Below, piece after piece: positions 6,801 through 39,800 of a stretch of 64,000 nucleotides of DNA (positions are counted from its first letter, which is position 1; every line of letters starts with the position of its first letter). The notes beneath the pieces are model-generated. The model searched no databases. It was not told where the DNA came from and saw only the letters and a program-made list of their open reading frames with translations. The translations under genes and the position numbers were made by a program. The DNA comes from Marsupella aquatica (Eukaryota; Plantae; Marchantiophyta): positions 15,878,816 through 15,942,815 of the forward strand of contig OZ316895.1 in NCBI GenBank assembly GCA_973895155.1, given 5' to 3'.

Positions 6801-7267
6801 TTGATCTTTTGACTGCTCGTAGGGACAGTCGGAGTCAACCAATGCACACCTCTGAGCCGAAGCTCCCAGACGCCGAAAAGAGCTTTCATTAGAGAGTCCT
6901 CATCACGGAATAAAAAAACCGCAACGAGTGAAGATCCTTTCCCTGCCTCCATCCTTACAGCCTCAATCGTGTTTGGGCAGGCTTTGCAGACCATCTCCCA
7001 TGTTTCCTCGTCCCAAATCAGAAACTCTGCCCTGTTCTTGCTTCCTGCTTTCCTTCCGCTAAACCCCACCCCTGTATGCAACTCCATCACCAGTGCTGTT
7101 GCCTCATTCTCTAATTTCGCCTTCTCCTTCTCCTCCCCTACTGCCCCTATGATAACATCATGATCAATTTGCCTATTTTCCATGTCTCGATCGTCTGCCA
7201 TTATTGACAGTTCAGTAACCTGTTCGCTGATTTTCTCCACCTGGACATCCCCCATCGCCAGCGCCAT
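860..7267 (-). CDS. ATP-dependent RNA helicase DEAH11/DEAH12-like (DEAH helicase, RRM/KH-like region, C-terminal RBR E3 ligase), 3 exons, 1787 aa
   Basis: Exons 7267-6356, 5637-4894 and 4567-860 join in phase 0 with GT-AG (CAG|GTGAC, TGCAG|GTG, CAG|GTATG, ACAG|AAC). Motifs: GETGSGKST (I), TQPRKVAA, DEAH, MSAT, ATNFAETSLTI, QRAGRAGR, HA2 region. C-terminal RING1 (CSIC...CGHGFCRSC), IBR (CTTPDC...CAVC...CTAC) and RING2 (CPGC...DGCNHMTCKC). This is the architecture of Arabidopsis DEAH11/12. There is an in-frame TGA upstream at 7301-7303. Confidence 0.95.
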
Positions 7268-8580
7268 CGACAGCTCACTACACTTTACCGCTGATGCGCG
7301 TCACCTCCTTTCTGCTTCGTCCGTCCTGTGTGCTCCAGAGTCTCGAGAACAAATAATGATCAAACTCGATCGACGCAACAATTGTATCCTGGCACTTCTA
7401 GATACATTTCCCTCGCACGTGCTGTACTTCGGTAATAGGTTGCAGACAAACTCCCTCGAGTCTCCCCCTTGCTATGCGCGAACAGAACAACACGCTTCCT
7501 CCCTGTCTTCGGAGAGCGTCGACCACGCCACGCCTTGCCTCTCCTGCCAATTCGATCACGAGGCAGTCAATCCGATCAATATCTTCTCCTTCCAGAAGCT
7601 ACTAAAGAGATCTCCATTGTCATGCCGTTGATTTGCAATTGTTGGCCACTAGAGACCCAGCGACGAAACAATCTATTGGCTCACAATCCTCACTATGCGG
7701 TGCGTCGTGCAATGTACCGTGTTGTGCGCTAATTAGCTCCTCCTACTGCGCTAACATCGACTCGTCAGGGATCCAATTGCCCGTCGGCTAGTCGGCAAAA
7801 GAATGCAATCAACCCACGCACACCAGTGCTAGCTCTAGATAAGCCCACTCCGAAACGTGTAGAAGTCTCAGCACAACAGCTGACCTCCACACGATCGTCG
7901 ACCCATGCTGCTCCTGGTCTCTATCTCTTCTATGCTGTCTGATTTGCTCTGCTCTCTTTCACCAGGAATGCGAAACTGGTTTAGCACAAAAGTGCCGTGT
8001 ATTTTCTTACAATTTCCGAACAAACCAACCCAATTGAAACAAGGAGTCCGCATCCAAAGCACCAGAGCTTTGGTACAACCGGTAGGTTGTTCTACTCTAC
8101 ACGCGAGCGAGGAGTTGTTTATCTGGACAACTGGACCAATTACTGTCCTGGACAACTGGAGTACTGGACCATTTGGTGTCGGGCATCCGCGCATGTTTAG
8201 TTTCGGGGAACAGCGAATCTCACCGGGTGACGACTGACGACATCCTTATATCCCTTCGGTATCTTCGCTCCTACGAAATGGTTGCTCGGAGTCCGAGTTT
8301 TCTCAGGATAATTTTGCAAAGTACAAAGTCAATCGCGATCGCGAAGCAGGTCCCTACTACGGAATGGCTCTCCGGCCCACTCCGGACAATTCTTATAGCA
8401 ACCGCAGTACAAACAACCGGCTGCTCTAATCGGCTTTCGAGTTGCCAACAATCGTCGTTCGTACTCTCTTCAGACTACGCAAAATCGACACTGTCCGGGT
8501 CACCAGAAATCCAAACCGCCAGAGAAAAAGATCGCTCCGCCGTTTCGCTTCTATTTCATATTATTACACACTACAGCAAC

Positions 8581-15101: not shown

Positions 15102-18100
15102 TCAATGACGATAAGTTTTCACAACTTGGTCAATGCGCCTCCGACAAAGAGGACAGCTAGAGAGCTGGGAGGAACACGAGGTGCAACAGCACATGTGACC
15201 ACACCTGGCACATGAAAGGAACTGGCTCAGAACATGCCTTGGGGATTTGACAGTTTTTGCTCAATCAGCTCAAACACAATTGACAAGAGTTTCAAGGGAT
15301 AAGATACTTACGGAACAAATACAGCATTGTAATCCTGCTCAAGACAGATAACACAAAGATCTGGCATTGACGTGTCTTTCAAAGTTGTCGACTCGCTCTC
15401 GCTCTTATCTTCATTTCCTTCCCTATTAGCTGCTATGGGAAACATAGCTAGGTGAGTAGAAAAACAAGAAGTCTATGAATATGCAAGACGGACCACACAC
15501 GCCCACCAAAAATTTTAATTGTAGGTGAAATGGAACTTGGGGTGTACATACCATCTGGATCAGCCCCATTCTCTAGTCGTTGTGCTGCTGCTTCCAACAC
15601 TCTGTAGAAGTTCCAGGGACAGGCTTCAATCAGATCAAATTTGTACGAAATTTCATAGAGCATTTACAAGTTCAAACTTAGGGGTAGACAATAAGATATA
15701 ATAAAAGGGCCACCTTCTCTGCAGAGCTGCTCGTCTCCGCTTTTCTAAAAAATGCCTGACCACGTGGGATGTCATCATGTATATCCCAAAAGCCGTGAAA
15801 CCAAGCGACAGGTACTTGTACCATCTGTTGCACAGATCCAAGTCCAACTGTCAATGTCCAGAGATCAAGTAGTGAGCATCAGCTAGCTCAGATACACAGG
15901 CTACATGAGCTCATGATGAGAAGAAGCCCCAGCTGGTACTGAGAATGGCGGCTTACTCAAACATGAACTAATAAGTATCGATCCCTGATTTCAAACCAAA
16001 TGGAAACAAATCTCACAGCTTGCGCATTCCACTTTCGTCAACTGGGCAAGTTCACAAGTTGCATCTTGTGGGATACAAAATTCCAAACGCATCTCAGACA
16101 TTCGTCTACCTTGACCACTTTCCCAGGTTGGCAATCAACTGATCTATGCTTCTTGGAGAAACATAAAAAGGGCCTTTATGTGGTCTTTGAATGCGAACTA
16201 TTCCTCGGTCATCCTTGACAGCCTGTGAGCATGTCCACAACTTTGTCAGGAGAGCTTGATTATTCTTTCGTAAATTGAAAAATATTTTGAAGTCCAAATT
16301 GTCACTGAAATTTGAACCAGAATGCATCCTGAGCAATCCAGAGTTCGAAGCAAAAAGAGTTGTTCAGAATTCGATCAGAAAAATCCTATTTGTAAAGAAG
16401 GTTCTCCTGCAAGGTGACTGTCTGACCTTTCTATCTATTTTCATGTTTGTTCTACCCGCCAGTGCCACCTAGAACCTTTGTCCCATGATAAGTATCCCAT
16501 GATACGGATCCTTATGAAATACCAAATCCTCGTTGACCCTATCTGAGCATTGATTTATCTGCTTTGTTAAATGATATATTCTGTTCCATCTCAGTCATGG
16601 CAGCAAATTCTTTCCAGTTGCAATGCTCAGAACCTAAATTATTCAGGACCTACGCAAGGCCTTTGCGCTACAAGATGAGAAATCCGGAAAGGCGCGAAAA
16701 GCGCGAAAAGCAGAAGTAGAAGTCACCAGATCACTTACTTCTCCTACGACAGTGAGAGCAGTCCCTGTGGGTAGAACTCTTTCAACTCGCTTTACGCCAA
16801 GCATCTTTCAAAACAGAAACCAACACTGAACAATTCAGTCATAGTTGCAAAACGAGGGCAATTAGAAGAAAGTTTCAAGTTTGTAAAATCCCGTCAAGTG
16901 ACCTTGTTATCTTTAGCACATACAAAAAGGACCGATTACAGGACTTTGTAGACACAGACCTTCAGTCCTTGGAGATAATCAAGAGTCCCACGAACTAGAG
17001 ATCGACCAGATTCTTCAAACACCTCACTAGCAACCGTGAGCTCCAACCCGGTGGCACCTCGTGCGCCCACAACGTATACACGACCGGAGCCATCCTCCTG
17101 TAAAAAGCTACTGCTTTAGGAAGTTGTGTATGAAAAATCCTGGATTGCACGTGACTTCTGAAATATCTTGTGAAAGCAATTCGGCCCAAAATTGACTGGT
17201 CCTCAAGGACATACCAGGTACCAGGGGACCTCCTTGCTGATTGACAACATAAGGGCAGAATCTTGAATCCATGAACCAGTATCATTATGCTTCAGAAAAT
17301 GCTGCTCAGCCTTGCACCAGTGCACAATGCACGCATCAGTCCAGGTTGTGAATATCTTTGTCAAATGTAAAGACTCAAAAATATCAGTTAGATAGATTAT
17401 TTATTCCTCTTTCCTTAACATTGCTACACCTATCTGAGTTTACTTACTGTTTCCTCCAAAATAACGCCTCTGAGGCTGCTATGCTCACAATTAATCGGCG
17501 TATCAGAGCCAACTCGTCCTGCAACGGTGACAACAGCTGGAAGAGCCTTGCATGCCGACTCCAGTAAAATTGCTGCCAAAAGAGGAAGACGTGAGGCAGC
17601 AAAACACAATAGCAATATTTTTTAACCATATTCTTTAGGGTAAGTCAGATACTTTGGAATTCTGTTAGTAGTAAGACACAAACCCTACTCCTCTGCAATT
17701 CATAATGCGACCACAAAGTTCGGGCAGAGAATTGGTAATCGAAAAAGTATCACCAAAATTTCTACTGCCGAGGAACAGATGCCTCAAAAGTCAATTACGC
17801 CAGCCAAGAGGGGGAGAGCGTCGAAGGACAGAACCCACTCACCAAGGTCTCTTAGTTGATTCACTCTCTTTACGGACTTCAAGGCCGCTGCATCTCTGAG
17901 GTATACACAAACGAATAACGAAGATCAAGATGTGGATTTAACACAAATTACGCATAATGAACATTGGTCACTTGTAAGTACAACACCTAGTAGATCACTC
18001 GGCATCACTACATCAATACACCCAGAAAGCAACCGGAATAGAAAGGCTCAAATCAAGGTGCGAATTATCCACAAAAAACGACTTCTTCCTTAGACAAGAA

Positions 18101-18289
18101 CTCAGACTTGAAGAAAGGGGTTGTGAAGCATAAAAGACAACAAACTGAGCAGAAAGATTGCCATTCGAACGCTGCAGCGAGGAAGGTACCATTCGCGTTC
18201 GTATTAGACACGTACCTGCCACTATTACAACTCAAACAGTAGAGAGCTGCGCCGCTGAGGCAGAGAGTCAGACCACCCCACGACAGCAT
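15102..18289 (-). CDS. SP1: Chloroplast outer-envelope RING E3 ubiquitin ligase SP1 (GIDE domain + RING), 11 exons, about 349 aa
   Basis: Exons 18289-18216, 17895-17843, 17572-17448, 17310-17215, 17097-16960, 16804-16739, 16222-16110, 15824-15714, 15601-15552, 15432-15312 and 15204-15102 (1050 nt, all GT-AG). The protein MLSWGGLTLCLSGAALY...GRVGSDTPINCEHSSLRGVILEETAEQHFLKHN...DQLIANLGKWSRWYKY...PDLCVICLEQDYNAVFVPCGHMCCCTSCSSQLSSCPLCRRRIDQVVKTYRH is colinear with Arabidopsis SP1. Confidence 0.95.
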
Positions 18290-19275
18290 TTTCTAATTTT
18301 TTTTATTTTTTTATTTTTTCTCTCCCCTGACGAGTGGAGCGCAAGAAACGCCAAATTCCAACCAAGAAGTAGGTCGTCGGTCAATCTATGGGGAAACCTC
18401 AATTCAGCCTTCAGAGTTGCGCATTCGGGACCCCAGACAAATCTCCGGCACAAGGCCTTGATCATCAGATACGGCCATCATCGCAGACGATGACGCCATA
18501 CCCCTCCCTCCTCTTCTCTCCCTTCTACTCTCCCTCACCCCGCCCTCATTCCCCGTCGCAGTGATGATGACAACAAATTGCAGCACAGCAGTGTGTGTCA
18601 CGATCGGGGCAAAGCAAACGTTCCTCCTCCTCGCACTGCGGCTCGATAATCAAGTGCGGAAATTCCGGTTGAAGAGCTTTGCCCCAATCCCCGAAAGTAC
18701 TCCAACTACGGTCCGGGGGCTTCTTCCGAATCCACCAAGGCTCTGAAATCACGGTCTTCTCCAAATCCGCAAAAGCGCTGCAAATCAATGCCCTCCGGCT
18801 TCTTCCATCCGATTGTTTGGTTCTTACGGTAACAGATTTTCTCGTGGCAAGAATTTTACATACACCACTGCAAAAACCCAAAAGAATCACCAAGATCGGG
18901 AGAGGAGAGGAGAGATCAAGCGACAGAAGGATCGAATTGGAAATTGGAAAGGCGGAGCGGAATGACACTCGAAGAACAATTCTTCGTAGGCAATAATAAC
19001 ATGCCGCTGACGCAGGGGAACGCCTGAGAAGGACAGAGTAGGTACAGACGATAAGCGCGATGTCAGCTTTCGGACTGTGGGCCTTCCCGGGAAAGGAACG
19101 ATTCCCTGTTACTGCTACGGTCGTGTGCAGGTATTTTTTACAAGGATTTTACTTTTTCGCCAGTGGCGAATGTACAGTGAGTGTGTGAAGGAGAAGAAGA
19201 TGCTCAAAAGATTCACTGTCCAATTATTTTCCTGACCGTTAGATTCTGGCTACTGGGGCCTGGGATTAGGTGGAA

Positions 19276-19383
19276 CACTGGCTAATGAGACAGCAAAACA
19301 GTAGCGAATTTTTCCCAAATGCGGCGAAAGATTTTTGGGGAGGTGGAATTTGGTGAATTTTTGCCACTAAAAAAAACGCTGGT
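19276..19383. repeat. Dispersed repeat; related inverted copy at about 63040-63290
   Basis: TTTTTGGGGAGGTGGAATTTGG and CACTGGCTAATG recur as reverse complements at about 63069-63090 and 63274-63288. Confidence 0.6.
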
Positions 19384-19501
19384 AGTGTGTGTACCATAGA
19401 GATCAGAGTCATTAACTCGGATGGGATCTCCATCCAAACCTTTGAGCTCGAATGGGACTCCCTAATGCTCTTTGCATGAATGTCAATCCACCTATATAGT
19501 A

Positions 19502-19842
19502 GGGCGTCTCCAACTTGCTCTCTCGCATTTCTTTCTGGTCAATCATTCTAATAAATTCAACTTTAGGGCCAACTTTCAGGTTCGAGATGGGTTTCAGGTT
19601 GCTCCTGTGGGTCAGCTGGGCACCAACAATTTATAATGCTTGCTGACAATTCTTCAAGGGTGCAAACAATTCTTGAAGGGCACCAATGCAATGTTGCACG
19701 AAGCAACTTTTGGTGCAGATGGTGGTGCGGTGACCACCCGAGTTATTGACGGTCACCTTTTGCAGGAACCGCATATTTTGGTCTGTGACCCGGGCTGCAA
19801 CATTCTGGTCACAGGAAACCTCCACGAATAGGTGAGACGCCC
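19502..19842. mobile_element. MITE (341 bp) with GGGCGTCTC terminal inverted repeats
   Basis: TA|GGGCGTCTC...GAGACGCCC|TA. The same termini occur at 31629, 31884 and 31890. Confidence 0.7.
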
Positions 19843-19942
19843 TAATACAGTGCAAAAGAACAAAAACATATAACCGGGAGTCACGGTCCTAAAGGCAAAC
19901 AACCCAATAAAGTGAAAATGCCAATCCACCCCTCACACAGTA

Positions 19943-20400
19943 GGGATTGTCAAAACAGTGCCCTGAGTGAGGTAGGGGCAAGGACATAAAGGACCAAAAC
20001 TTTTTGGGCTACCTAAATACATTGCCCTTAAGGATGAGATCTCCAACAAATAACAATCATAAGACTTTCATTGTGGCAGTGCTTTGACACACTAATAGGG
20101 CGTGTCAAAACAGGGTCGCAAGTGAGGTGTGGCAAAGGACATAAAATAGTTTTATGACCAGGACAAATACCTTACAGGCTACCTAGAAATGTGCCCCATA
20201 AGGATCAGGCATCCAAAAAGTCACACCACAAGACCTAGCTTATGGCAATGCTTTGACACACCCTAAAAGGGAGTGTCCAAGCAGGGCCTAGGTGAGTATG
20301 GCCAAGGACATAAAGTAGTTTAATGGCCAGGAAACTAACTTGCAATGGGATACCCATAAACATGCCCGTTAAGGTTCACACATCCAAAACCTAATTATGT
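19943..20400. mobile_element. Head-to-tail array of about three 150-170 bp MITEs with GGGCGTGTCAAA / TTTGACACACCC termini
   Basis: Units begin at about 19943, 20098 and 20268. They share GGCAAAGGACATAAA...GGCTACCTA...TAAGGAT, and the first two end in GCTTTGACACAC. A further copy lies at about 34596-34755. Confidence 0.65.
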
Positions 20401-21269
20401 GTAGAAGCAGACCATAATCCATTTCTTAGAGTAGCCAACTCATGAAGTGTCATTAGTATGCAATTGTGTCATATTTTGTTGCCAGCCGCAAGTAAAAATT
20501 ATAACCCATGACTACTCTTTATGGGAGCAGTCAAACTACCCACATCTTGCACATAAAAAATTGGCCATGAATAGATTCACATCTAAACATATATACGAAT
20601 ATTCTTTTCTTATGATTCTGTTTGACATTCCCTAATATTCGAGCAAAGTGAGGGTTATAGACAAATAGTAGTGTTCCCTCCTTCTGTGTGCAGGGCAAAA
20701 TGACAAGTGAGAGGGGAAAAGAGTGGGCAAAAGAGCCCTTTGGAAGTAGTAAGTGCTCGGACCCGGGTGGCCGAATATGTGAAGCCCTTTGCAACTACTA
20801 GGCACACAAGCTGTGAAGGTGACGAGGTAATGCGCACAAGTGGTGAGGAATAGGTGTTGGCACAAGCAACACTTGCTCGAGGACTTGGGGGGGGGGGGCA
20901 AAGTCTCACATCACACAAGGGTGTGCAAAGGTTTGGGTCTGGGATTCAAACCCAGGAGCTGAAGGTGCCAACATGGTGAATGCAACCATATGACAACATA
21001 AGGTGGAATGGTGTACTTATTGAGGAAAATTAATAACAGTCAAGGGTCCAGTCTTCACCTGGCCTTGCAAGTACTAGCATAATCATTGAGTGTGTATTTG
21101 GTACAATATGGAGGTACAAACCTCACTTGGGATGCCCTAGTAGTGTGAGTAAGCCATCATAGGATCTGCTCAAACATGTGGTTTAACCAGGATGACATCT
21201 ACCAAGACTGAAAACTATTTTAGCTTTTGCTTGAGAGCACTTACACTTTTGTGTGAGGAATTTAGAGTA

Positions 21270-21545
21270 CACGTCTTGCATGGTCCATATTAGTGTAAGC
21301 TCTCCCAAAGTAATAGCAACACATCTTGCATCCCCAATAGAAGCCTAAGTGCTCCCAAGAAATGGGGACAACACCTTGCATATGACCTATCAAAGTGCAA
21401 GTGCTCCCATTCAAGCAATAGCAGCATCTTGCATCACCACTAAAAGTGTAAGTGCTCCCCAACAATGGCAGCAACATCTTGCATGACCCAGTGCAATAGC
21501 CAATGTAAGTGCTGGCAAGCAATTGCCAGAATATCTTGCATGACC
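21270..21545. repeat. Degenerate tandem repeat, about 50-60 bp units
   Basis: Recurring GTAAGTGCTCCCAA...AGCAACA(CA)TCTTGCATG, about 5 copies. Confidence 0.7.
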
Positions 21546-22626
21546 TTTATACACACTAAACAAAATCTCATATGACTTGAAGTTTGTAGTGGAAGTGTAA
21601 GAGGTTATATACACAGGAACTATGGTCTCAGGGGTTTCACTTCCACAAGAATGGCACATCACATGCGACGAAGTAAAAAGTCATTTTATTGGTTCAAAGG
21701 GAAGACTTAAGAATTTTCTGAGAAGAACAATAGGGTTTTTTAAATCAAATTTTGAGACTTATAAGAACATTAGGGTCCGTATAACCAAAATTTTGGAATA
21801 TTCCAACTTTATCGGGGTTGAAAAATAATTTTTTTCTTCTTACATTTTAGGGGGTCCCATGCCTAAAAACATTGCAGGTGATGGGGAGGCATCCATATAG
21901 TGAGACCCCCGAGACTATGGTAACCAAGGAAAACCAAGTGAACTCCTTTGGTTGAATGAGAACAGAGATGTTGTATGCACAGAATACCCAGGGAATCCAC
22001 TGAAAACCTTCTATATGCATGTTTACATGTCATATTTGGAACAAAAGTCTAATACTATATGCAAGTTAACTTTAAACATTTAATTTGTGTCCATCAATCC
22101 AGGCATTATGTCAAAGGTTTGTCTTCATCCAAGCTTCATGCCGGTCATGTGAAAGTACATAATCAACCTACAGCCAAGAAACAGCCACGGTTGCTGTTGT
22201 GACTTTGTATATAGTGACTTCCTGGTAACAGGGCATTATGGGCCATAATGCCCCCCAAAATGAGGGCTTTACTTAGAATTTTGAGGGGCTAATATTGCCC
22301 TAAACAGGGTGTTCATCTTACTAGTAATTTGCAATAAAAATCTACTTCTATGCCCCAGGTCTAGAGTGCAGGGAAGGCTACAAATCATAAATGAATGTAA
22401 TGAGAATAGTAAGGAATCTTTCTTGTGCAAGGTTTTCTTGTACTCACCTATATTTATTTCAAAAGAACAGGCACAGTAGTCAGGCTTCTATACTTGAAGG
22501 CCTGAGAGAAATTTAATTCTTACTCTATTGATAGTGGCCTAGGAGAATTTGATAATGACCCGATCCAAACCTGTAACTGTGCATTCTTAGCTATAAAGCA
22601 CCAAAACTTAGAAAGAGAACAAATCA

Positions 22627-22946
22627 AGCAACTGGCTTAGGTCAGTTGGCCAGGGGATGAGCCTAGAACTGAAAAGTCCCAGGTTCAACCCCCCGGAGAC
22701 ACACAGGGGTGTATAGGTGTGTGAGTGAGATGGGTTTTGTGGGTAATGGATGGGAGTTCTGATTATCTACTCGGCCCCTGGTTGTCCACTTTGTGGCCCT
22801 ACTTTAATCCTCTTTGCCTCCCGTTGCAGCCCCTGTTGGACCCATGGGAGCTAAAATAGGTTCCCGACAATGAATGTATGTCACTATTGAGGTGGGGAGA
22901 GACTACTAAGTGTTCTTACTCATTTCAGTTCAAAACAAAACAAAAA
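22627..22946 (+). mobile_element. tRNA-derived SINE
   Basis: Pol III A box TAGGTCAGTTGG (22638-22649) and B box GGTTCAACCCC (22682-22692) at tRNA-like spacing, but no pairing acceptor stem. A-rich tail CAAAACAAAACAAAAAA. Imperfect flanking duplication AGAAAGAGAA(C)AAATCA at 22610-22626 and 22947-22961. Confidence 0.65.
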
Positions 22947-23432
22947 AGAAAGAGAAAATCACTCAGGGTAGAGTCTCCCATTGGGGCTCACCCTGAAATG
23001 AGTCCCTAAATATATGTCACTATTGGGGTTGGGAGAGACTACTAAGTGTTCTTACTCATAGTTCAAGGGGCTCACCCTGAAATGAGTCCCTAAATATATG
23101 TCACTATTGGGGTTGGGAGAGACTACTAAGTGTTCTTACTCATAGTTCAAGCCACAAGAGAGACTACCAAGTGTTCTTACTCATTTCAGTTCAAGACATA
23201 AGAAAGCCAAAAATCACTTAGGGTAGAGTATCCTACTGGGGCTCGAAAAGAAGAAAGAGAAAAATCACTCAGGGTAGAGTCCCCGATTGGAGCTTACCCC
23301 AGAGTCCCCAGTGGTGGGCTCACCCTGAAATGGATCCCTAAAATGAATATATGTCACTATTGGGGTGGGGTGGGGTGGGGAGACTACTACGTGTTCAAGG
23401 CAAAAAAGAAAGAGAAAAATCACTCTGGGTAG
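22947..23432. repeat. Tandem reiteration of the SINE 3' end plus a hairpin module (core period 84 bp)
   Basis: GGGGCTCACCCTGAAATGAGTCCCTAAATATATGTCACTATTGGGGTTGGGAGAGACTACTAAGTGTTCTTACTCATAGTTCAAG at 22983 and 23067. Partial copies continue to 23432. Confidence 0.85.
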
Positions 23433-23570
23433 TGTCACCTCCACAAGATCTCGCATGTACCTTGCTGGAGCAGCTACCTGTAGTTCATTCTTCACGAGGA
23501 CTTTGATCGAATGCCAAACAACTGCCAGTGGCGATTCCATCACACTCGTCTTCTCCAGATTGTTAGGACG

Positions 23571-24664
23571 ATGGCAAGTTTCGGTATTGATTCGAAGGTC
23601 TTGTTAAACACGGGGTTCGAAATTCCGGATTTGGGATACGGGGTGAGTTGCCTCCCATGGAATTGCTGTTGTGTAGAAAATAATTGAGATGGAGATCTGG
23701 AAACTGACGAGGACCTGAATTGCAGGTTTTTCAAACGCCTTCAGACATCTGCGAAGCAGCTGTCAGTCATGCTCTGAAGGTCGGGTATAGACATGTAAGT
23801 GAGGACATTCCTCCCCGTCTGTCAATTTCCATGACTTCCATTCCGATTCAATTGTTTTTCCATTCCGGTTGTCCTAATTGCTGAAATGGAGCACGCGGAT
23901 TGAATTTCCTCATGAGCTCACAGGTGGATTCTGCTATCGCCTACCGCAACGAATCCCCTTGCGGCCTCGCCATTCGCAACAACTCCTCCTCCATCCCCCG
24001 CTCTGAAATTTTCTTCACGAGCAAAATCCCCCCTGGGTCACTCAGCTACGGAAAGGCGAAAGGTTTTGTGGATGCCAGTCTGAAAGCGACCGGATTCGAC
24101 TACATCGACCTCATGCTTATCCATGCTCCCTACGGCGGGTCCTCCAACCGCAAGGGGGCCTGGAAAGCCCTCGTCGAAGCTCAGGAGGCCGGCAAGGTTC
24201 GCAGTATAGGCGTGAGCAACTACGGCGTCCACCACTTGGATGAATTAGAGACGCACATAAGGGAATTGGAAGAGGAGAGAGGTGGTCCAGGGCGCGGAGG
24301 CAAGATCAGTGTAGGGCAATGGGAACTCCATCCTTGGCTGCAGCGAAAAGATATAGTGTCATGGTGTAGAGAGAGGGGGATTGTGTTGCAGGCTTACAGT
24401 CCCCTTGTGAGGGGGCAGAGGTTCAATGATGAGAAGTTGGTGGAATTGGGGAAGAAGTGTGGGAAAACGCCTGCTCAGGTGCTGTTAAGGTGGAGCTTGC
24501 AGAAGGGGTTTGTGCCGTTGCCAAAGAGCGTGACCAAGAGTAGGATTGAGGAGAACGCGGATTTGTATGACTTTGAGCTGAGTAAGGAGGATGTGGATAG
24601 ACTTTCAAGCGATGGGTATGAGCCGTGTACGTGGGATCCAACTACCAGTTCTCTGGAGCAGTAG
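23571..24664 (+). CDS. Aldo-keto reductase (2,5-DKG/glyoxal reductase-like, ascomycete-type), 3 exons, 293 aa
   Basis: Exons 23571-23642, 23726-23794 and 23924-24664, all phase 0 (GGG|GTGAGT...CTGAC...TGCAG|GTT; CAT|GTAAGT...CACAG|GTG). Protein MASFGIDSKVLLNTGFEIPDLGYGVFQTP...ALKVGYRHVDSAIAYRNE...IFFTSK...DLMLIHAP...VRSIGVSNY...QAYSPL...LLRWSLQKGFVPLPKSVTKSRIEEN. The catalytic tetrad D-Y-K-H is intact. Confidence 0.95.
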
Positions 24665-27306
24665 ACTGTTTCTTACCAGTTCTTCGAGAGGCACTGTAGT
24701 GTTGAAAACACCTTTTCGGCTGACAATGAGCTTCAATTTTGCTCTCTGCTCCTAAGAGACCATACTGCAACGCTGGCAACACCAGATCATAATCAAAGCG
24801 TGTAATTGGATGCCAGTGAGCTAGAATTCCTAACCCCATAATCAATTGCGTATTGGGTTGCCAATGCGTTCTTCTGCTCGTTGTAGGATAGGATGACTAA
24901 CCATAATTAAATAGGGGGTCCGAAATGTACAGACATCCTTCATGGGGCCGTGAAGTTTAGAAATGACTAGATGGGTGGTGCCCCACGCCACCGTTGTCTT
25001 CTTTACTGTAGCAACCTTACTAAGCTGGTAATTAGAGCTCTAGTAAACACCTAACTTTTGTAGGTACCGTGTATATTAGTAGGGTGTGCGTCTGCAGTGT
25101 TTGCAGAAAATTTCGATTGGGCACACTCTGCTTTTTGGGCCATGCTTTGCTTGGAAATTAATGAAGTCGATAGTTCGTGTTCGTGTTCGTGTTCGTGATT
25201 ACTTCAAGCTCGTCTTCAAGGGAGCATGGCTGGGAGGAGATGAAATGGAACACGGTATTGGTGACGCTGAGGAAGGCAGCGATGTGTAGGAATTGATGCA
25301 TAGACAGCAGTTCTTTGCAGCTACTGTGGCACAGATGTGTAGGAATTCCGTGGTGCAGATCTCTGATTTTATGTCGAATTTTTCTTCAGGGTTGGCTTAG
25401 TTTTGTACAAGGGCATGTTTGTAAAGACAAACGGGCTTTTACAATCCTTTTCTGTTTTTTGGTGAATGGTATATTGGCTGTGTTTAGTCTTCATGTCGCC
25501 CTCTCGTACCTGCATACTTGTCAAACTGGCATTCTACCCCAGATAAGTTTGAATTCATGTATTCTGGAGTCTGCGAATACATCGTCCAGACTAGATTGTG
25601 ATTGATGTGGAATTGCGACTGTCTGGAATGAAAGCTCTCCCTCCCCTGTGACGTTTCTCTTTAAGTATACCAAAGCATAACGGCCAAAGAGTCCCCTGTC
25701 TGGAGCTGCAAGCTATGGATCGGCTGACGAGGCCTGAATGTCTTATTCTCCGGTGAGAAGGATGAAGGATGGGCACTGGGGCAGGGTCAGCGATGGAGCG
25801 AATTATGATGGCAGGGCAGAGCACGGCAGCAGGGTCAAGGTAGGACACGCAAAGGGCCAGGGAGGCAGCAGTAGCAGGAGCTCCTGCCTCTGGTCCTACA
25901 GGGGCAGCAGCAATAGCAGCTGATGAAGTTCAAAGCCGTGCTTTCTGGCGATTGAATTCGGGTTGCTGTCGTGTTCTTCACAATCATGGGTAGTAGAGTA
26001 GCTCCTTGATTTAAAGATTTTCAAAAGCGCTCCCTCCCCTTTGACCTTTCTCTTCAAGTATACCAGAGTCCTTATAATTTAGGTTCGCTACTTTGGGTAC
26101 ATTCTTTGAACAATGATAGAGAAGCATTGAAAGGGGAAATGGAAGCCAAGAGTGTGTGAGGTTGCATGTCCTTCGTTACGCTGATACCCTACTTGTCTGT
26201 ATGGTCATTGGCCTAGTTGTGGTATGTCAGCTGTATGTTCAGATATTCATTTGACGTGTAAGTGGAACGCTACTGTAGTTTGGGCGTTCATTAGCCGGTT
26301 TACCTTGACTGGAAGCTTGCTCCTTACCCGGAATAAAAGTTTGCTCCCAAAGGCTTCTTGCTGGTACGCGCTACTGAGACGGTTTCGCTAGTTCATCAGA
26401 AGGTTCACTAGCAAACCCAGGTTTCCTACTTTAGTTGTTCCACCACAGGAGAGTACAGGCGAGAGCTTGATATCTAATTCGCTTAATATCAAATTCGCTT
26501 CATATCAAATTCGCAGACATGAATTCATAACCATTCACTCGCTGATGCAAACGCATGATACATTGATCAGGGCTGTACCAACCTAGAAAATGAGTCAGGC
26601 ATGCGCAACCAAACAATGCAAAAAGGCGATATCAAGCACAACCTTACCCTAAAACCATCTTGCTCACCAGAATAACAGATTCGTAAAGAAACACGAAGCT
26701 TATAAGATTAAGCAACCAGCAAAATAATTATAAACGGACCGTTTGATCTCCCTGCATCTGAATACACATACCAGAGTGCGGTAAGAGTATCCAACGATTC
26801 ATGAGAACTTGCATGTTAAGACATTATGATCTCTACTCGGCAGTGACCACAGTTTGCATGAGAGAAAGCACAGCCTCAAAGAATTTTAACTCGTGACCTG
26901 ATCCTTCGGCGTTTCTTTCGATTAGGATAAGAGATCATTGTTCCGTTTGAGGTAGCTCATGTCAATTTCAGAGTGAACAAAAAAGCCTGCAAGGCTCCCC
27001 AGCTAGCAAGGGTGCCCAAAAGCAAGCTAGGCCTTCTGACTCAATTGGCTCTGAAGCATGCTAGTATATATACAGCCTTTGAGAAACTCATGTAACTCAC
27101 GACAAGCACATGAGGAACCTCACAGTACTACATAGCACTAAACCCGTTACCAGCTCTTGATTCCTAACTTATAGATACATGACACGCTAATTACCTATCC
27201 AACATTGGAGCATGAGATTGAGTACTGACTCTGACCGGAATAAATAAGCAAGCATTTCAGAGAATCCTACGGTACAGAAACTGAGACGAAATGGGAGTGC
27301 AGACTA

Positions 27307-30011
27307 CTATTCTCTCTTGTCCTCTTCGGTTTCATCATCGAGACTGAAGACATCAGTGTTGACCGGCTTTCGCGGGTCCGCCTTGATGGAAATTTTCTCA
27401 TTCTCAACTGCTAATCCAGTGGAAGTTAGCGCCACGGCCTCCTCATCGTAATCTTCCCCAACGTCTTCCGAATAGGCAAACCTGAGCACACACATTTTTC
27501 TGGTCATGACCTATTCAACTGATGGACTGGCTCGGCACATGACAGCACCACTGAGAAGAAACTGACATGTTATTTGAAATTTATAATCCATTACCGTCGT
27601 CCTTACCTTGTGGAGTTGTGCGATGGTGCCCACAGAAGACAGATGACAATGAGGAGCACAAAGGTGAAGATACTCCAGAACGCCGTAATTGTCCAGGAAT
27701 TCTCCCATCGCTCACTGAACTTGTCTGTTGCTTTGAAGTACAACTGCATCAATGATGAAAACAAAAGTTCATTTTTCTCGAGTGTATGATAGGATCCCTC
27801 CATATTTAAGTAACAGGGTTGAAAAATATCTCTCTAACTGCCGTCTCTCATAAATAGAATCTCTCGCTATGGTCGGAAACAACCAACGATTGTATCCTTA
27901 CCTCATAGCCAATCCACAACACAGCAATGATAACAGCAAGCGCCAGAGCATTTGTAAATTTTCTATACAGTTCCAATTTGGCGTAGCGTTTCCTGGCCTG
28001 CCAGAAACGATGAAAACAAACATGAAAATAAGTATAAATAAGTAGGCCGTTAGATATTTACAAGAAGTGCTAGCCCCAAACAGATCAGTACTTGGCAATA
28101 GAGGAAGCACAATCGCAGGAACCAAATACCAACATGGTAGAGATGCACATTCCAATTCAAGGGCATACACAAATATATTATTTACCACGAGCCCCACTCC
28201 CTTGTAAAAGAAGAACAAATTAGGATGAAAACCTACCTGCAGCTTCTCAAGTGTCTTGGACAAAGAAGTAAAAATCCAGAGAATGAAAAAGGCATCCAGA
28301 ATCGCGACAGGCAGCACAAGGAAGAGACGGGCATTTCCAGACGCGTCATTAATAGTCCCGACGTTCTCGACTACATCCAACACTTCAGCGGCTGCGAAAT
28401 ATGTTGCTCCGAGCAAAACCACTTTGGAAGTGAGCCCACCAAGAGTTGGAAGAACGACACCATATCCCATCGACACAACCAAGATCAGAAGACGAGAGAC
28501 CGTTTTCTTAACCGCACTGAAGGTCACGGCCCACACCGTGATGCCTATGGGCCTCTTTCCAGTTGCATTGAAGTTCACGTAATCAAAATACCAAGTCGCC
28601 ATCTCACACATCCCAAGCGCTATGACAGCTGTGATGCAGTTTTGAAGCTGTAAAATTTCCTTCCAGTACCTCACATACTGGACAAACCAGATCAGCCCGA
28701 GAGTAAGGTATGCAAGAGACATAATGCCACAGAATATTAACGAGGGTGTCATCTTTCCGGGAAGATATCCTCCTGGATTCTTCCAAACTGTTTTCCCATT
28801 CAAGGTCAATCCCTGGAGCTCTGGCTCACAGAAAACGAAGTACAATGTGTACATTCCTTTCTTCGTAATCGGAATGGTATCTGTCGGCAATTGAGTCGTC
28901 ATTTCATTACCAGTAAAGGAGGCCCTTCTCGACTGTGGCCAATCCGGGTTCTCAGCGTCTTTTTGAATTATCACTTCCCCTTGCTTACATCCTGTGCTCT
29001 TCGCCAGATCTTTAGTGCAGCACAAATCTCTTTGACTGCCATCAATATAAGACGCACCAAAATTGTCTTTATCTGCTAGCTCAAAGATGATAGCTTCGAC
29101 TGTAATCTTTGCAGTCTCGGTGGTGACCTTACTTGCAGAGTCAGTGGTCCTTGTAAATGTGAGTGTAGGGTCAAATCTGTTTGTAAGACAAGACGAGGGC
29201 AAGTTAGGGCACTGCTGTGAACTTGACAATGAAGAATACAGTCCAACCCAGTCAAATTTGTCATGCAGTTACCTCCCAAACTTTTGACACCCGCCTCAGT
29301 ACTGAAAGGAGAGAAGGTAAGCAGAGGGTTTCATGGACTGCTTTTGTCTATAGCGATAGTCCAAGTAAGTAAGTAAACAGCTATACAGTACGCACACGGG
29401 CCCTCCCTATCGACTGCTTTCAGTGGATAAGCGCAGAGAGATCCAGTAGCCAATCTACAAAAAAAATGAGAATGGAGGGAGTAGGGAGAAAGCGAGAGAA
29501 GGGAGAAAGACACAAAAATGAGTTTTCGTTCCTGGTCCTGGCCACACGATACAACGTAGATGTACCCATTGACTTCAGACCTGTATCTGATTTCTATGTT
29601 AGAGATAGACAGGAATAAAGCGAGAGAATGGATAATCAATGAGTAATGAATGTCTACGGGGGGGGGGCAGAAAGCGCCATGGACCAATATTGTACAGAGC
29701 TAAGGCAGAGTCCATGATGGCAAGGCAGAACAGGAGGTCCCAGAGCTCGAAAAAATTGTATAGAGAAAGGCCAACCTGATAAATGATTTGCCGTTGGCAA
29801 CGCCACTGCTGTTCTTGCTGGGTACACTTGCTCTGAGACCCTCCATTCCTCCATATAAGAAATAAGCATTTCCAATCTGCTTAAATTTGGCATTATGATA
29901 CTCGTGCACTGACGCACCCGCTTGCTTGAACCCAATGCCGCTTAAAACGACTAGCAGAAAGCTTGCTAGGGCTATAGATCTCCAACAACCCATCATCTTC
30001 ATCGATATCAT
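27307..30011 (-). CDS. TMEM87/GPR107-family (lung seven-transmembrane receptor, CAND7-like) protein, 5 exons, about 527 aa
   Basis: Exons 30011-29776, 29176-28237, 27997-27902, 27743-27607 and 27481-27307 (1584 nt, GT-AG, in phase). Signal peptide then ASVHEY, luminal CC...GC domain, VWKNPGGYLPG, LILVVSMGYGVV-PTLG, KLELYRKFTN, LWAPSHNSTRFAYSE and C-terminal EEDKRE. Confidence 0.93.
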
Positions 30012-31628
30012 TGCAGGTGGCTATTGTGACGCAATGCACTACGTCCTTCACCTGCAAGCCTTCAAGAATGCCCACAAGCGCGACGTTAGACGATCTGACC
30101 AAAGATGGTTTGGACCAAAGGCTCCTTAGGATCATCGATCGTTGCCAACGACCTTGGAAGCTTCCAAGAACCTAAAAGAACTAGGACTGTATCTAGTGCA
30201 GAAACGTCAGCGACGATCCACCGATCTTGGTCCTTGTGAAAAGTTCGCCACCTACCTTCTATAACTCCTCCTGCGAGACTCGATCTGGAGGGCCTCAACG
30301 ACGTGTGGCAGGTCAGCCTAACCTGAACGTATACATTCCCTCCACATGCACTCCATCCACCCTAGTCCCGTCCCAAACACCTGTAAAAAGTCGGTTACAA
30401 ATCGAAAACTCCACATGCACCAAACTTTTCGTACCGAGAGTGACCCTACACAAACCTCTCTCGCCCCTTTCCTCCCTCCTCTCCTTCCTTCCCGGCAAGG
30501 ACGAAACCCAAATGAGCAGCTACGAACGAAAAGCAAAACAGCAATCGAGCAGCTTTGAACAAATGGCCTAGCTATCCAAACGCATACATGAAATCGACCT
30601 CCACCGTCATTCGTCCAGGTGACGCTCCGACCAAGCTCTCATCGTTCCCAAAGTACAACCCAAATCCGCTGCCTCCTCCTCCTCGTCCTCCTCCTCAATG
30701 CCGGACACAAACGACGACACCACACGTCCAGATCCTGCAGGAGAAGAATTCCTTCCCAAGAACCCCGCTGATCCGTGCCCTGACCCAGGCGAGACGGCAG
30801 AACTTCTCTTCTGTACGATACCCTATTATTGCCTCGTGACCACACTGACCTCCTCTTCGGTCTCTCGGTCGAGGCGTGGAGCAGAATGACCAAACGGACG
30901 ACGAAGACGAGAATCGAAGCGTGAAAATCAACTTCGCAACTGCGAGAAACGAAGATGACTCAATAATGAATGAACGAATGCCCCGAGCAGTCAAAACCAC
31001 CGTCGAACCGGATGCAAATCACAATGCTGAGACAAGACAGAGCACGATGACGATACGGGGCCCAACCCAGCCCATCCCTGCCGACCCGAGCCGCCGACCC
31101 GAGCCGAGCCGAGCCGAGGCTGGAGAAGGGTGGAAAGAAGGGGGAGATACTTCACAAAGAACAGAGAGAGCGTCGGAATAATAAAAGAAAGGCAAAAGAA
31201 AAGAAGCCGGAAAGAAAGGGGGTCGCCGAGCCGGGGGCAGCTGAAGCGATGGTCCCATTGCCCCCAAACGTAGAACGACGAATGCCGGTGGGGTAGAACG
31301 TACATGTACGGTTGGCAATGGCGTACTCGGGAGCACCTACAGCTGCTGCGCACGAATCCAGGACGGGACTGACAACGGGAACGGGACGCGGTCTGTGGTG
31401 GTAAAAGGAAATCCGGGATCGCTTCTTCCGTCCCCATACCCGCGGGAATTCTGGCTGGTCTCAAATCCTGTTGAGAAGTAATCGCTCACGGAAAAGTAGG
31501 TTAGTCCGTCAAAAGTTCTGGATTTCCTAAAATGGCAGTCGTTAACTGTTACGGATGTACGTGAACATCTTCTTACCGCGGTGGAAGATGAACGCCAAAC
31601 CCATGTTTCAGACGCCCTATTATTGTTA

Positions 31629-36899: not shown

Positions 36900-39800
36900 T
36901 CAATAAAGGAAAAGACCTTTGCTTTCGTGTGGAAGAATCCACTCATATATTTCTGATTTGACCCGGCGATTTATTCTGCGCTTTCCATATTCCTGCACTA
37001 TAGTCCATAGCTCCGAGACGCACCAGTTCTCGTGACGAATCCAATCAACTACCTGCTTGATGCAAGGCATAAAGTTACAGAAGAACATAAGGATAATAAT
37101 TGGAGTCGACCAGCCATTTTTGCTACTTGAAGTTTGTAATGCAAAGTATTACCTGTTGCAGCCTCTGTGAACGGGGGTCTCCAAAACTATAGTAAAGCAA
37201 TGCAGAACATCCAGCCTGTTAAAAAGTAAAGTTCTATTAATCAGTCTGCTCAAACAAACAGAAGCATGAGTCTCACATGGTAACTACGATCTAGTATAGA
37301 GAATAATGATTTGCCAAAGTATGATGCGTAAAAAGTGATTTCTTTGTTTGAAGAACAAAACAAAAGAAAATAAAGCTCTTGACAACAACAAAAAAATCTC
37401 TTGATCGAATTGTCAAGGCTCACAACTTACTTGAGAGGCAGCTAGCCACTGTAAAAGGCTTTTAAGTTGAAGGTTACCCCCAAATGCACCAGCTCCCCAG
37501 TTTCCAGTAGATATACCCTTAAGATTGTGGTGCATGACACAGCTTCCCGTAGATTCAGCTTTCTGGCTCCTATCTTGTCTCGCGTTCTCATCGATGTCCA
37601 TAAATGAGAATGAGTTCTCAGCACTGTCAGCGTCTAGGCTCACTTCATAGTTGGCATCATAATCAGGAACCTGCCATGCAATAAGTCACATCGGGAAAAA
37701 CACAGAATAACTTACTGTACTCAACTCTACTTTCGCTGGTGGAACTCACAAAGCTAGGAGGCAACGCTTTTGCCTGTTGAACCACCATAGATTCAGAGCT
37801 AGAGAAACGTCCCATCTCAAAGCTTTGAACATTGACTAAAGCATTATCACCGTGAGCAGGTGTTCCGATCCAACTTACAGATTCTGGACGGTCCTTAGAA
37901 GCCGAAGGTCCCGACGAGATTTCTCCCTGACCACTAATAATGCTTTCCGTGCTCGCAAGGTCTGGAGCTCCATTATATCCGCACAACGCCGAGTGGTTTA
38001 AGAAACCACAGTATGCTTTATTGAGCTCCCTGCTCACAACCCAAATAAAGAAGGAACTAAGGTTAGCAGAGCTGTCTTGAGGTCCAAAAAATTCAACGGC
38101 TACCCTTGTTTCACAAACCATAGGATAAAATTGAGAGACCTCGATCGACGTCCCTCTCTTGGGACAATCATTGGAGTTTCCACATTACAAATTGTGGCAT
38201 GAAGAACTATCATTCTAAGGCCAGGTACCAAGGTTTAGCTTCCTGAAGACCCGCAAACTGCCTCCATAGGTTCTTAGAAAGCAGTTGTAGCACCGCGTAG
38301 GTCAGATCTGTCATGCAGAACGCTGGATACCTGATCATGAATTCATCCTCGAACTGACTCTCTCCTGGAAGGCATAGAGCATCAATGGCACCTATACATG
38401 TCTTTCTTCGTCCCCAGGAGTCTCTAGGAGTGTTGTCGGGGTGATCACCAGTAAAGCGGAAGCTCTGACCATATCTATAAGCACCAGATACACAACAACA
38501 GCACAGTAGAAGGTCCATATCAGCCTCCAACCATCATTTTCCAGCACAAGCAGAAAAACTCTTCATCACGTCTGCAACGAACAGATATAAAGATTTGCCT
38601 GTGTCAAAAGCTACCATGCACTACAGGTTTTTGAAGCTTTTAAGCAAGTCTAAGGTTTTGTGTTCCGTATTCAATTCAGATTCCCTAAAAATGTGCTTGG
38701 AGTCCAGTTAAAAAACACACCTCACGCAACTCACTCAAGATCCTCCTTGGGACAAGCATTCTTGCCTTGAAAATGGATATTACTTACTGACACTGAAGCA
38801 GGACAACTATTGCGCTCATCCATCAAGAAAACTCCGGCTGCGATACAAGCTACAGCACTACTTACCCTGTATATTCCGAATAAGTCTCCACACCAACTAT
38901 CTCTATGGACTCATTGTCGGTCATAGTTGGCAAGAACAGCATTCCAGCTATACATTCAGGACTGATCATGAAGCGAATTTCCTCCTGCAAACAGGGAAAA
39001 ATCATTCGATACTATCGTTATTGTCCAGATGGGCCCAAACATCGTACCAACACACATTGCATCCACGTATGTGAACGGATAAAGGAATGAGCTTAAGAAG
39101 GAATCAAATCAAAGGGCGCAGGAGGTTTTAAGAGCTAATCAACCGAAATGAACTTAAAATTTTCTGTATTTATTGGACGACGTGCACACATACGCAAACT
39201 TTGCCTATAACATTCTTGTGCAACAGAATTAGGACTGTCTTACTGAACAGTTTCTCCCCAAACCCAACTTAACAAGATTATAATTGGTGATTAGGATGTA
39301 GGGTTTGCAGACGAGGGCCAAGAAGCATCAACCATTGCTTGAGACAAATTGACGTACTTGTACACATCCCGAATGAAGGGCACCACCTCCAAGTTGCTCA
39401 TTAGCAAAATCAACCTGTAAATAGTCCGGCCCAGCATCTGCTATTGATCCATCATTAAGTACCTGCAAAGGCTTATCCATATTAATTAAGGAATCATATC
39501 ATTCAATCAGTGCATTGATGCGAGTATACAAAGCGAGAGTGACTTTGTTCGACGAATCCTATCATCAGCCAAAAACTCCTAAACAGACAACATGTTTCAT
39601 GGAGGGTCGAACTCCGGATTTCAGTTCCTATTGCAAGTGACACCAACTGGGTTTCGTATACTTTATCTAATTTAGTCTGTCAGCTACGCAAGCAGTACTA
39701 TTTCCAAATTCAAACACTATTATTCAAAGAAGCTAAAAGATTTAGAAAGCTATTCAAAGACGCTAAGACTTTACAGCTCATCGAATGCCTGTCGTTCTGT

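What the first reader, a model, noticed from the sequence alone, without database searches (positions are those of the whole stretch)
23433..24900. Intact ascomycete-type aldo-keto reductase embedded among plant genes: candidate recent fungus-to-plant gene transfer
Seen in sequence: a complete 293-aa AKR with intact D-Y-K-H tetrad between plant SP1 and TMEM87 genes. It is the only plus-strand gene in the window. It has two short 5'-biased introns (83 and 129 nt); the first has a textbook CTGAC branch site 17 nt before the AG and no polypyrimidine tract. Knowledge (from memory): the insert ELEEERGGPGRGGKISVGQWELHPW, the LIHAPYGG motif and the C-terminal YEPCTWDPT are features I associate with filamentous ascomycete AKRs, not plant AKR4/aldose reductases. 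Inference: DNA-level transfer, because introns are retained, from an endophytic or symbiotic fungus, possibly for carbonyl detoxification or polyol metabolism. Chimeric assembly of fungal contaminant DNA is the main alternative.
Basis: partly seen in the sequence, partly recalled or inferred. Interest (0 to 1): 0.85.

Follow-up and report, generated by a model that had tools for sequence, protein, structure and literature searches.

The report
Old fungal reductase gene in liverwort
A leafy liverwort carries an intact sac-fungus-type enzyme gene, with two fungal intron positions, between the same two plant genes as in the liverwort Calypogeia fissa; it is likely a real but old fungus-to-plant gene transfer, not contamination, and is predicted to reduce reactive aldehydes or sugars.

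Summary
The gene is real: three exons (23571-24664, +), 293 aa, catalytic tetrad intact. The host is a leafy liverwort: both neighbours are closest to Calypogeia fissa. C. fissa has the same AKR (86% identical) in two copies on 14.8- and 10.8-Mb contigs. On the first, SP1, AKR and TMEM87 carry consecutive accessions, the window's order. Runs of three studies hold it at about host depth. Contamination is therefore very unlikely. Of the 61 top-120 hits with an organism name, 60 are ascomycetes (62-74%). Both introns sit at positions common in fungal-type homologues, a third is absent, and exon 3 keeps a fungal C-to-G codon gradient. The liverwort copies form one clade (100/100) inside an ascomycete AKR clade (100/99). 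The donor is unresolved, and an AU test does not reject a sister position (p 0.146). 'Recent' is not supported: the gene predates the host/C. fissa split (crudely 75-100 Myr), and synonymous sites look saturated against the 8 fungal loci compared. Likely function: cytosolic NADPH-dependent carbonyl reductase; expression untested. It is a clean new case of a known phenomenon, in a lineage that hosts ascomycetes inside its cells.

The parts
23571..23642 (+). AKR exon 1 (24 codons; the start codon lines up with C. fissa and fungal homologues; an in-frame ATG at 23511 would add 20 aa)
23643..23725 (+). Intron 1, 83 nt, GT-AG, phase 0, after the GxG motif; same position in 39 of 61 scorable metagenome homologue loci
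23726..23794 (+). AKR exon 2 (23 codons); in 46 of 61 scorable homologue loci it is split by a further intron that the window lacks
23795..23923 (+). Intron 2, 129 nt, GT-AG, phase 0, just before the catalytic Asp; same position with canonical ends in 43 of 77 loci with a call
23924..24664 (+). AKR exon 3 (246 codons plus stop): D49, Y54, K81, H114, cofactor motifs, ascomycete-type insert; fungal-like C-to-G gradient at fourfold sites
15105..18289 (-). Left neighbour: plant SP1 RING E3 ligase, 348 aa, 10 introns, 96.8% identical to C. fissa CAM6101627.1 (stop codon not included in the coordinates)
27310..30011 (-). Right neighbour: plant TMEM87/GOST protein, 527 aa, 4 introns, 88.8% identical to C. 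fissa CAM6101629.1 (stop codon not included in the coordinates)
22847..23449 (.). Cluster of a high-copy repeat (includes an exact 2 x 84-nt tandem) directly upstream of the gene; summed contig depth 1,800-13,000 in the bin 22604-23070 against single-copy depth of about 10-100

Best explanation
This is an intact ascomycete-type aldo-keto reductase gene fixed in a leafy-liverwort chromosome between SP1 and TMEM87, as in Calypogeia fissa; it likely entered as genomic DNA from an ascomycete before the two lineages split and is predicted to act as a cytosolic NADPH-dependent reductase of aldehydes and ketones. Shown: intact ORF, conserved catalytic and cofactor residues, the same gene order in C. 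fissa, two intron positions shared with fungal-type homologues, fungal-like codon gradient. Inferred: (1) a fragment of fungal DNA with introns was integrated in a Jungermanniales ancestor, plausibly from a fungus living in its cells; (2) the host spliceosome handles the introns, and the middle intron was lost before or after transfer; (3) purifying selection has kept the frame open in at least three copies for tens of millions of years (crudely 75-100 Myr or more); (4) the enzyme uses the standard AKR chemistry (hydride from NADPH, Tyr54 as general acid, supported by Asp49, Lys81 and His114; textbook knowledge), most likely to detoxify reactive carbonyls such as methylglyoxal or aromatic aldehydes (about 55%), or else to reduce aldoses to polyols (about 30%).
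For: Homology: best hit C. fissa P0002, 87% on exon 3; of the 120 listed hits (of 7,559), 61 carry an organism name: 1 liverwort and 60 ascomycetes at 62-74% (that these genera are ascomycetes, and their classes, is recalled). Synteny: C. fissa SP1, AKR and TMEM87 are CAM6101627.1, CAM6101628.1 and CAM6101629.1 on one 14,812,252-bp contig; a second copy of all three lies on a 10,824,149-bp contig. Depth: X1 has one contig 23122-25718, no differences, depth 8.2 against 9.7-13.3 for the single-copy neighbours, overlapping by 30 nt into pieces that reach TMEM87; X3 (another study) has exon 3 at 56 against 48-54 for most neighbours (two pieces 33-38); X3 shows two versions of the 5' part, as for host DNA, and X5 (third study) holds exon 3 at 5.1 against 3.4-5.1 for TMEM87. 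Introns: 27 of 61 scorable loci have both positions plus a third. Codons: fourfold C/G skew 0.45 to -0.60 along exon 3 (p 1.3e-5), same direction in 31 of 33 fungal-type loci; GC4 0.70 against 0.39-0.48 in five host exon stretches, none with this drop. Tree: liverwort clade 100/100 inside an insert-bearing clade 100/99, within a 90/95 group of Leotiomycetes, Sordariomycetes and Lipomyces. Constraint: 113 of 115 near-invariant fungal columns kept; 86% identity to C. fissa against 89% for TMEM87. Function: top solved relatives are YvgN, prostaglandin F synthase, 2,5-DKG reductase and conjugated polyketone reductase. Opportunity: C. fissa hosts Hyaloscypha hepaticicola in rhizoid cells (10.1101/2025.04.01.646537).
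Against: The AU test does not reject a tree with the liverwort rows as sister to all 22 fungal rows (p 0.146), so strict nesting is not proven. No plant AKR was in any tree. Absence from other plants rests only on their not being among the top 120 hits (cut-off about 62-65% identity). No close donor was found, and the backbone is unresolved. None of 61 loci has the window's exact intron pattern. On the second C. fissa contig the accession order differs (AKR 6106777, TMEM87 6106779, SP1 6106783). X1 may be the window's own source, and no listed contig spans the whole interval. Expression and activity were not tested.
Confidence: 0.82

Rival explanations
1. Fungal contaminant DNA mis-joined into a plant scaffold.
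For: Calypogeia species are colonised by ascomycetes (PMC7062687). A high-copy repeat lies just upstream, where assemblies can mis-join. No listed contig spans the whole interval.
Against: The same three-gene order exists in the annotated C. fissa assembly, with the AKR on two different Mb-scale contigs. Depth matches host single-copy DNA in runs of three studies, and the gene shows the same two-version pattern as host DNA in organism B. The liverwort copies form their own clade with 18 residues nearly absent from 20 fungal proteins.
Confidence: 0.02
2. A vertically inherited eukaryotic AKR subfamily, kept in ascomycetes and leafy liverworts and lost in most other lineages ('last-one-out').
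For: AU p 0.146 for a sister rather than nested position. Such losses can mimic transfer (PMC13047068, passages).
Against: Liverwort-to-fungus distance (65-71% identity) equals the distances among ascomycete classes. No other named plant appears in the top 120, although Marchantia, Riccia, Physcomitrium, lycophytes and ferns are in the collection. The codon gradient and GC4 are fungal-like and unlike the host's.
Confidence: 0.05
3. A recent, species-level transfer from a present-day endophyte, or two independent transfers into this host and C. fissa.
For: Codon composition is still fungal-like.
Against: Same syntenic position and one clade with C. fissa. Fourfold-site identity to the 8 fungal loci compared is 25-42%, and no nucleotide similarity was found in the flanks. 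Host/C. fissa neighbour divergence is 0.25-0.33 of the distance to Marchantia.
Confidence: 0.02
4. Same origin, different role: the enzyme serves the ericoid symbiosis or desiccation tolerance by interconverting aldoses and polyols rather than by detoxification.
For: Yeast YJR096W, which I recall as the likely yeast counterpart (orthology not tested), is listed as a xylose and arabinose reductase, though it also reduced vanillin (PMC4818428, passages). The related C. fissa forms a nutrient-regulated intracellular symbiosis with a Leotiomycete.
Against: No expression or substrate data. The main text of the C. fissa symbiosis preprint never mentions a reductase. The closest solved relatives are broad carbonyl reductases.
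Confidence: 0.25

Closest known systems
Ascomycete AKR subfamily with the acidic/glycine-rich insert (e.g. Bisporella sp. KAH8601142.1; Lipomyces, Rutstroemia, Neurospora homologues)
   Same: 65-71% identity over the full length; same insert, C-terminal motif and two intron positions; same codon gradient
   Different: Lies in a plant chromosome; lacks the middle intron; intron 2 is longer than in most fungal loci (129 nt against about 50-75); 18 liverwort-specific residues. No named member in my results has a tested function.
Calypogeia fissa CAM6101628.1 / CAM6106777.1
   Same: Orthologue by position and tree: 86% identity, between SP1 and TMEM87 on the first contig
   Different: The window protein has a 2-aa insertion and 41 substitutions against CAM6101628.1; both C. 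fissa records are 'unnamed protein product'
AKR5-type reductases: Bacillus YvgN (3d3f), prostaglandin F synthase (1vbj), 2,5-DKG reductase A (1mzr), conjugated polyketone reductase C2 (4h8n)
   Same: Best solved relatives, E 6e-48 to 7e-40; about 44% identity to YvgN (94 of 212, counted by hand from the alignment); tetrad and cofactor motifs shared
   Different: They lack the 14-residue insert; the DkgA and DkgB equivalog cut-offs are not reached
Known fungus-to-plant transfers (Fhb7 from Epichloe into wheatgrass; fungal MTPSL genes, macro2 and KP4 genes in bryophytes)
   Same: Gene of fungal origin fixed among plant genes in a host lineage with intimate fungal contact (PMC12448838 passages; PMC12513842 passages; macro2 from a search listing)
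   Different: A different enzyme family, apparently limited to part of the leafy liverworts; not found reported in my searches

Membership tests
Aldo-keto reductase superfamily (PF00248) | Pfam match above the gathering score | tested here: met
   110 bits against cut-off 24, E 1.4e-31
Aldo-keto reductase superfamily (PF00248) | Catalytic tetrad Asp-Tyr-Lys-His and cofactor-binding motifs | tested here: met
   D49, Y54, K81, H114; S145-N146, Q179, Y205-S-P-L, K248-S249...R254...E257-N258 (roles recalled)
Aldo-keto reductase superfamily (PF00248) | NAD(P)H-dependent carbonyl reduction | not testable with these tools
   needs an assay
AKR5 family | 40% or more identity to a named member (threshold, and YvgN's place in AKR5, recalled) | tested here: met
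   about 44% to YvgN over exon 3, hand count
2,5-didehydrogluconate reductase DkgA/DkgB equivalogs | NCBIfam cut-off (425 / 327 bits) | tested here: not met
   162/126 bits for exon 3; 211/156 for the full C. fissa protein
Yeast YJR096W orthogroup | Orthology by tree | not tested
Plant AKR4 / aldose reductases | Groups with plant AKRs | tested here: inconclusive
   No plant other than C. fissa among the 61 named top hits, but no plant AKR was placed in a tree
Fungus-to-plant horizontal gene transfer | Physical linkage to host genes | tested here: met
   consecutive accessions in C. fissa; overlapping contigs at host depth
Fungus-to-plant horizontal gene transfer | Groups with the donor kingdom with strong support | tested here: met
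   inside the ascomycete insert clade, 100/99
Fungus-to-plant horizontal gene transfer | Nested within the donor group, alternative rejected | tested here: inconclusive
   nested at 90/95 in the best tree, but AU p 0.146
Fungus-to-plant horizontal gene transfer | Donor-type gene structure and composition | tested here: met
   two shared intron positions; fungal codon gradient
Fungus-to-plant horizontal gene transfer | Patchy distribution in the recipient kingdom | tested here: inconclusive
   only the top 120 of 7,559 hits were seen; more diverged plant copies cannot be excluded
Fungus-to-plant horizontal gene transfer | Expressed and spliced in the host | not testable with these tools
   no RNA holder listed

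The most novel reading that the evidence does not exclude
An ancestor of ericoid-mycorrhizal leafy liverworts took this reductase from the Helotiales lineage that colonises its rhizoids and now uses it at the symbiotic interface to handle fungal carbonyls or to trade sugars and polyols. That would be a plant running part of its mycorrhiza with a gene taken from the mycorrhizal partner's own lineage.
Probability: 0.12. Interest if true: 0.85.

Novelty: new member of a known kind. Interest (0 to 1): 0.52.

Why it matters
A 2025 review counts about 20 well-supported fungus-to-plant transfers (PMC12448838). A bryophyte survey reports a mean of 229 horizontally acquired genes per species from all donors (PMC12513842). 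So the phenomenon is known, but cases with conserved synteny, donor introns and donor codon signature together make unusually clean examples. This one sits in the lineage of an emerging model: C. fissa has axenic cultures, a long-read genome and RNA-seq with and without its fungal partner. Whether a gene from ascomycetes is used in an ascomycete symbiosis can therefore be checked with data that already exist. The gene also offers a marker for dating fungal contact in leafy liverworts and for how slowly foreign codon patterns fade.

Tried and rejected
No whole genome is held, so copy number and other fungal genes in this genome were not examined. No RNA holder was listed; this says nothing about expression. 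Run X6 (organism C) gave only short partial matches at the AKR and about 82-91% matches at TMEM87; lack of cover is not counted as absence. Fungal DNA in the flanks: 0 of 94 blastn hits outside the coding span; 6 of 1,003 tblastx rows fell outside it, 11-32 aa long, judged spurious. Branch site and weak pyrimidine tract as fungal marks: rejected, host introns show them too. Empty-site test: not possible, because SP1 and TMEM87 lie about 570-870 accession or locus numbers apart in Riccia and Marchantia. Faster evolution in the window lineage: 24 against 15 derived sites, p 0.20, not shown. The 56-row mixture-model tree did not finish; only its quick version was seen, with an implausible root from two distant bacterial rows. 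The FastTree run dropped 5 proteins lacking the anchor motif. The 37-row LG+G4 tree is the one relied on; its 12 outgroup rows are unnamed cluster representatives. Leotiomycete donor: neither recovered nor rejected (AU p 0.376). Prokaryote genomes gave only 2 loci at 37-39%. ESM Atlas nearest clusters were AKRs, mostly Ascomycota; treated as a lead only. Earlier scan findings: none. No structure was predicted. Literature: five searches bearing on prior reports showed no paper on this gene. The HGT lists of PMC12513842 (Supplementary Data 8-11) were not among the one supplementary file held, and bioRxiv supplements are closed, so it may be listed there.
Full report
Observation. The gene is as described. 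Exons are 23571-23642, 23726-23794 and 23924-24664 on the + strand, with phase-0 GT-AG introns of 83 and 129 nt, giving 293 aa without an internal stop. Exon 3 matches PF00248 at 110 bits. The tetrad is D49, Y54, K81, H114, and the cofactor motifs are present. The neighbours are SP1 (15105-18289, -) and TMEM87/GOST (27310-30011, -). Of the 145 longest + strand frames scanned (of 276 of 50 aa or more), only the AKR has a Pfam hit above its cut-off.

Host. The TMEM87 exon is 90% identical to Calypogeia fissa and 75% to Marchantia polymorpha. The SP1 exon is 100% identical to C. fissa. Full models give 88.8-89.2% (TMEM87) and 96.3-96.8% (SP1) to C. fissa, and 70% and 88% to Marchantia. The host is therefore a leafy liverwort related to, but distinct from, C. 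fissa.

Integration. C. fissa encodes the same AKR twice: CAM6101628.1 on a 14,812,252-bp contig and CAM6106777.1 on a 10,824,149-bp contig, 85.9% and 86.3% identical to the window protein and 96.9% to each other. On the first contig SP1 is CAM6101627.1 and TMEM87 is CAM6101629.1, the window's order. On the second, all three are present but numbered 6106777, 6106779 and 6106783, so the order or annotation differs. Two copies fit the recent genome duplication reported for C. fissa (10.1101/2025.04.01.646537, parts 1-2 of 4 read); I did not establish that the NCBI record is that assembly. In run X1, which may be the window's source, one contig covers 23122-25718 without differences at depth 8.2, against 9.7-13.3 for the single-copy neighbours. 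It overlaps by 30 nt into a short piece and then an 18-kb contig holding TMEM87. In X3, from another study, exon 3 has depth 56 against 48-54 for most neighbouring pieces (two at 33-38), and the 5' part exists in two versions (0 and 17 differences; depths 35 and 30), as host DNA does in that run. X5, from a third study, holds exon 3 at 5.1 against 3.4-5.1 for TMEM87. No listed contig spans the whole interval. Contamination is very unlikely.

Origin. Of 7,559 hits the best 120 were listed; 61 carry an organism name: C. fissa first (87%), then 60 ascomycetes at 62-74% (fungal class labels are recalled). Marchantia, Riccia, Physcomitrium, lycophytes and ferns are in this collection, yet none appears. 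Eighty metagenome loci were fetched. They are unnamed and partly redundant; L001 has a Dom34/pelota-like and a dihydroxy-acid-dehydratase-like neighbour by eye, and such loci group with named ascomycetes in the trees. In the 61 that could be fully scored, intron 1 is at the window's position in 39. Intron 2 is at the window's position with canonical ends in 43 of 77 with a call. Twenty-seven of 61 have both plus a third between them, 15 have none, and 0 have the window's exact pattern. Shared positions argue for transfer as DNA, followed or preceded by loss of one intron (inference). At fourfold sites exon 3 shifts from C-rich to G-rich (skew 0.45 to -0.60, p 1.3e-5) with GC4 0.70. Thirty-one of 33 fungal-type loci shift the same way. 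Five host exon stretches (one lying within another) have GC4 0.39-0.48 and no such drop. In a 37-row IQ-TREE analysis (LG+G4) the three liverwort proteins form a clade (100/100) inside an insert-bearing clade (100/99) otherwise made of ascomycetes and unnamed rows, within a 90/95 group of Leotiomycetes, Sordariomycetes and Lipomyces. Against this: forcing all 22 fungal rows together without the liverworts is not rejected (AU p 0.146), a Leotiomycete sister group is neither found nor rejected (p 0.376), and no plant AKR was in the tree. Vertical descent with mass loss (discussed in PMC13047068, passages) would need plant-to-fungus divergence no greater than that between ascomycete classes, plus a fungal codon pattern, which I consider unlikely.

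Age. The gene predates the split of the host and C. fissa. Poisson distances of the neighbours to C. fissa are 0.25-0.33 of those to Marchantia. With the 293.7 Ma estimate for the Marchantiopsida split in the preprint, this gives roughly 75-100 Myr, assuming a clock; that is a crude minimum age. Fourfold-site identity to eight fungal loci is 25-42%, and no nucleotide similarity was found outside the coding span. 'Recent' is not supported. The surviving codon signature suggests the transfer is not as old as land plants.

Function. The frame is open in three copies. 113 of 115 columns nearly invariant in 20 fungal proteins are kept, and both changes are shared with C. fissa. There is no significant rate difference between the lineages (24 against 15, p 0.20). 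This points to purifying selection (inference; dN/dS could not be computed without C. fissa DNA). The N-terminus aligns with the fungal starts, so a cytosolic protein is likely; an upstream in-frame ATG at 23511 exists. The best solved relatives are YvgN, prostaglandin F synthase, 2,5-DKG reductase and conjugated polyketone reductase; the DkgA/DkgB cut-offs are not met. The Lys-Ser...Arg motif suggests NADPH (recalled). I commit to a broad NADPH-dependent carbonyl reductase, most likely detoxifying reactive aldehydes, with aldose-to-polyol reduction as the main rival. Yeast YJR096W, recalled as the probable counterpart and not tested, is described as a xylose/arabinose reductase that also reduces vanillin (PMC4818428, passages). 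Calypogeia species host ascomycetes (PMC7062687, passages), and C. fissa takes Hyaloscypha hepaticicola into rhizoid cells. That supplies opportunity, but the tree does not name the donor.

Novelty. Fungus-to-plant transfer is established: about 20 well-supported cases in a 2025 review (PMC12448838, passages) and frequent HGT in bryophytes (PMC12513842, passages, whose main text has no mention of Calypogeia or of a reductase). Searches showed no report of this gene. The survey's HGT tables and the preprint's supplements were not available to me and could list it. Verdict: a real, old, well-supported new instance of a known kind, readily testable in C. fissa. Interest 0.52.

Noticed in passing
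window 51935-55388 (-), likely extending to about 59135: A many-intron dipeptidyl peptidase III (Pfam M49) with a six-residue HELLGH-type zinc motif and an EECRAD motif. I recall this as the animal/fungal form rather than the Nudix-fused plant form; its origin in liverworts may deserve a look.
   Followed up: partly
window 863-7300 (-): DEAH11-like RNA helicase with KH, RING and IBR domains, in three very large exons.
   Followed up: partly
window 37416-41009 (-): Poly(ADP-ribose) glycohydrolase gene.
   Followed up: partly
window about 19232-19376, 21680-21914 and 22629-23450: Short very-high-copy repeats (summed contig depth up to 160,000 against single-copy 10-100) in the SP1-AKR interval, with shared loose ends in four runs; possibly MITE- or SINE-like.
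   Followed up: no
runs X3/X4 on window 17000-31000: Organism B carries one version nearly identical to the window and a second a few per cent diverged across host and AKR DNA, as expected of an allopolyploid or hybrid with the window's lineage as one parent.
   Followed up: partly
window 25610-26584: A version in X3/X4 skips 973 nt here, and 25631-25675 / 26024-26068 are 89%-identical direct repeats: a small insertion or deletion polymorphism downstream of the AKR.
   Followed up: no
L001-L080 (AKR exon 3): A 5' C-rich to 3' G-rich shift at fourfold sites is common in these fungal-type genes (31 of 33) and could serve as a general marker of ascomycete-derived genes in plant genomes.
   Followed up: partly
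P0020, P0023, P0025 (Lipomyces): Lipomyces copies of this AKR group among filamentous-ascomycete sequences; slow evolution or a fungus-to-fungus transfer, not examined.
   Followed up: no
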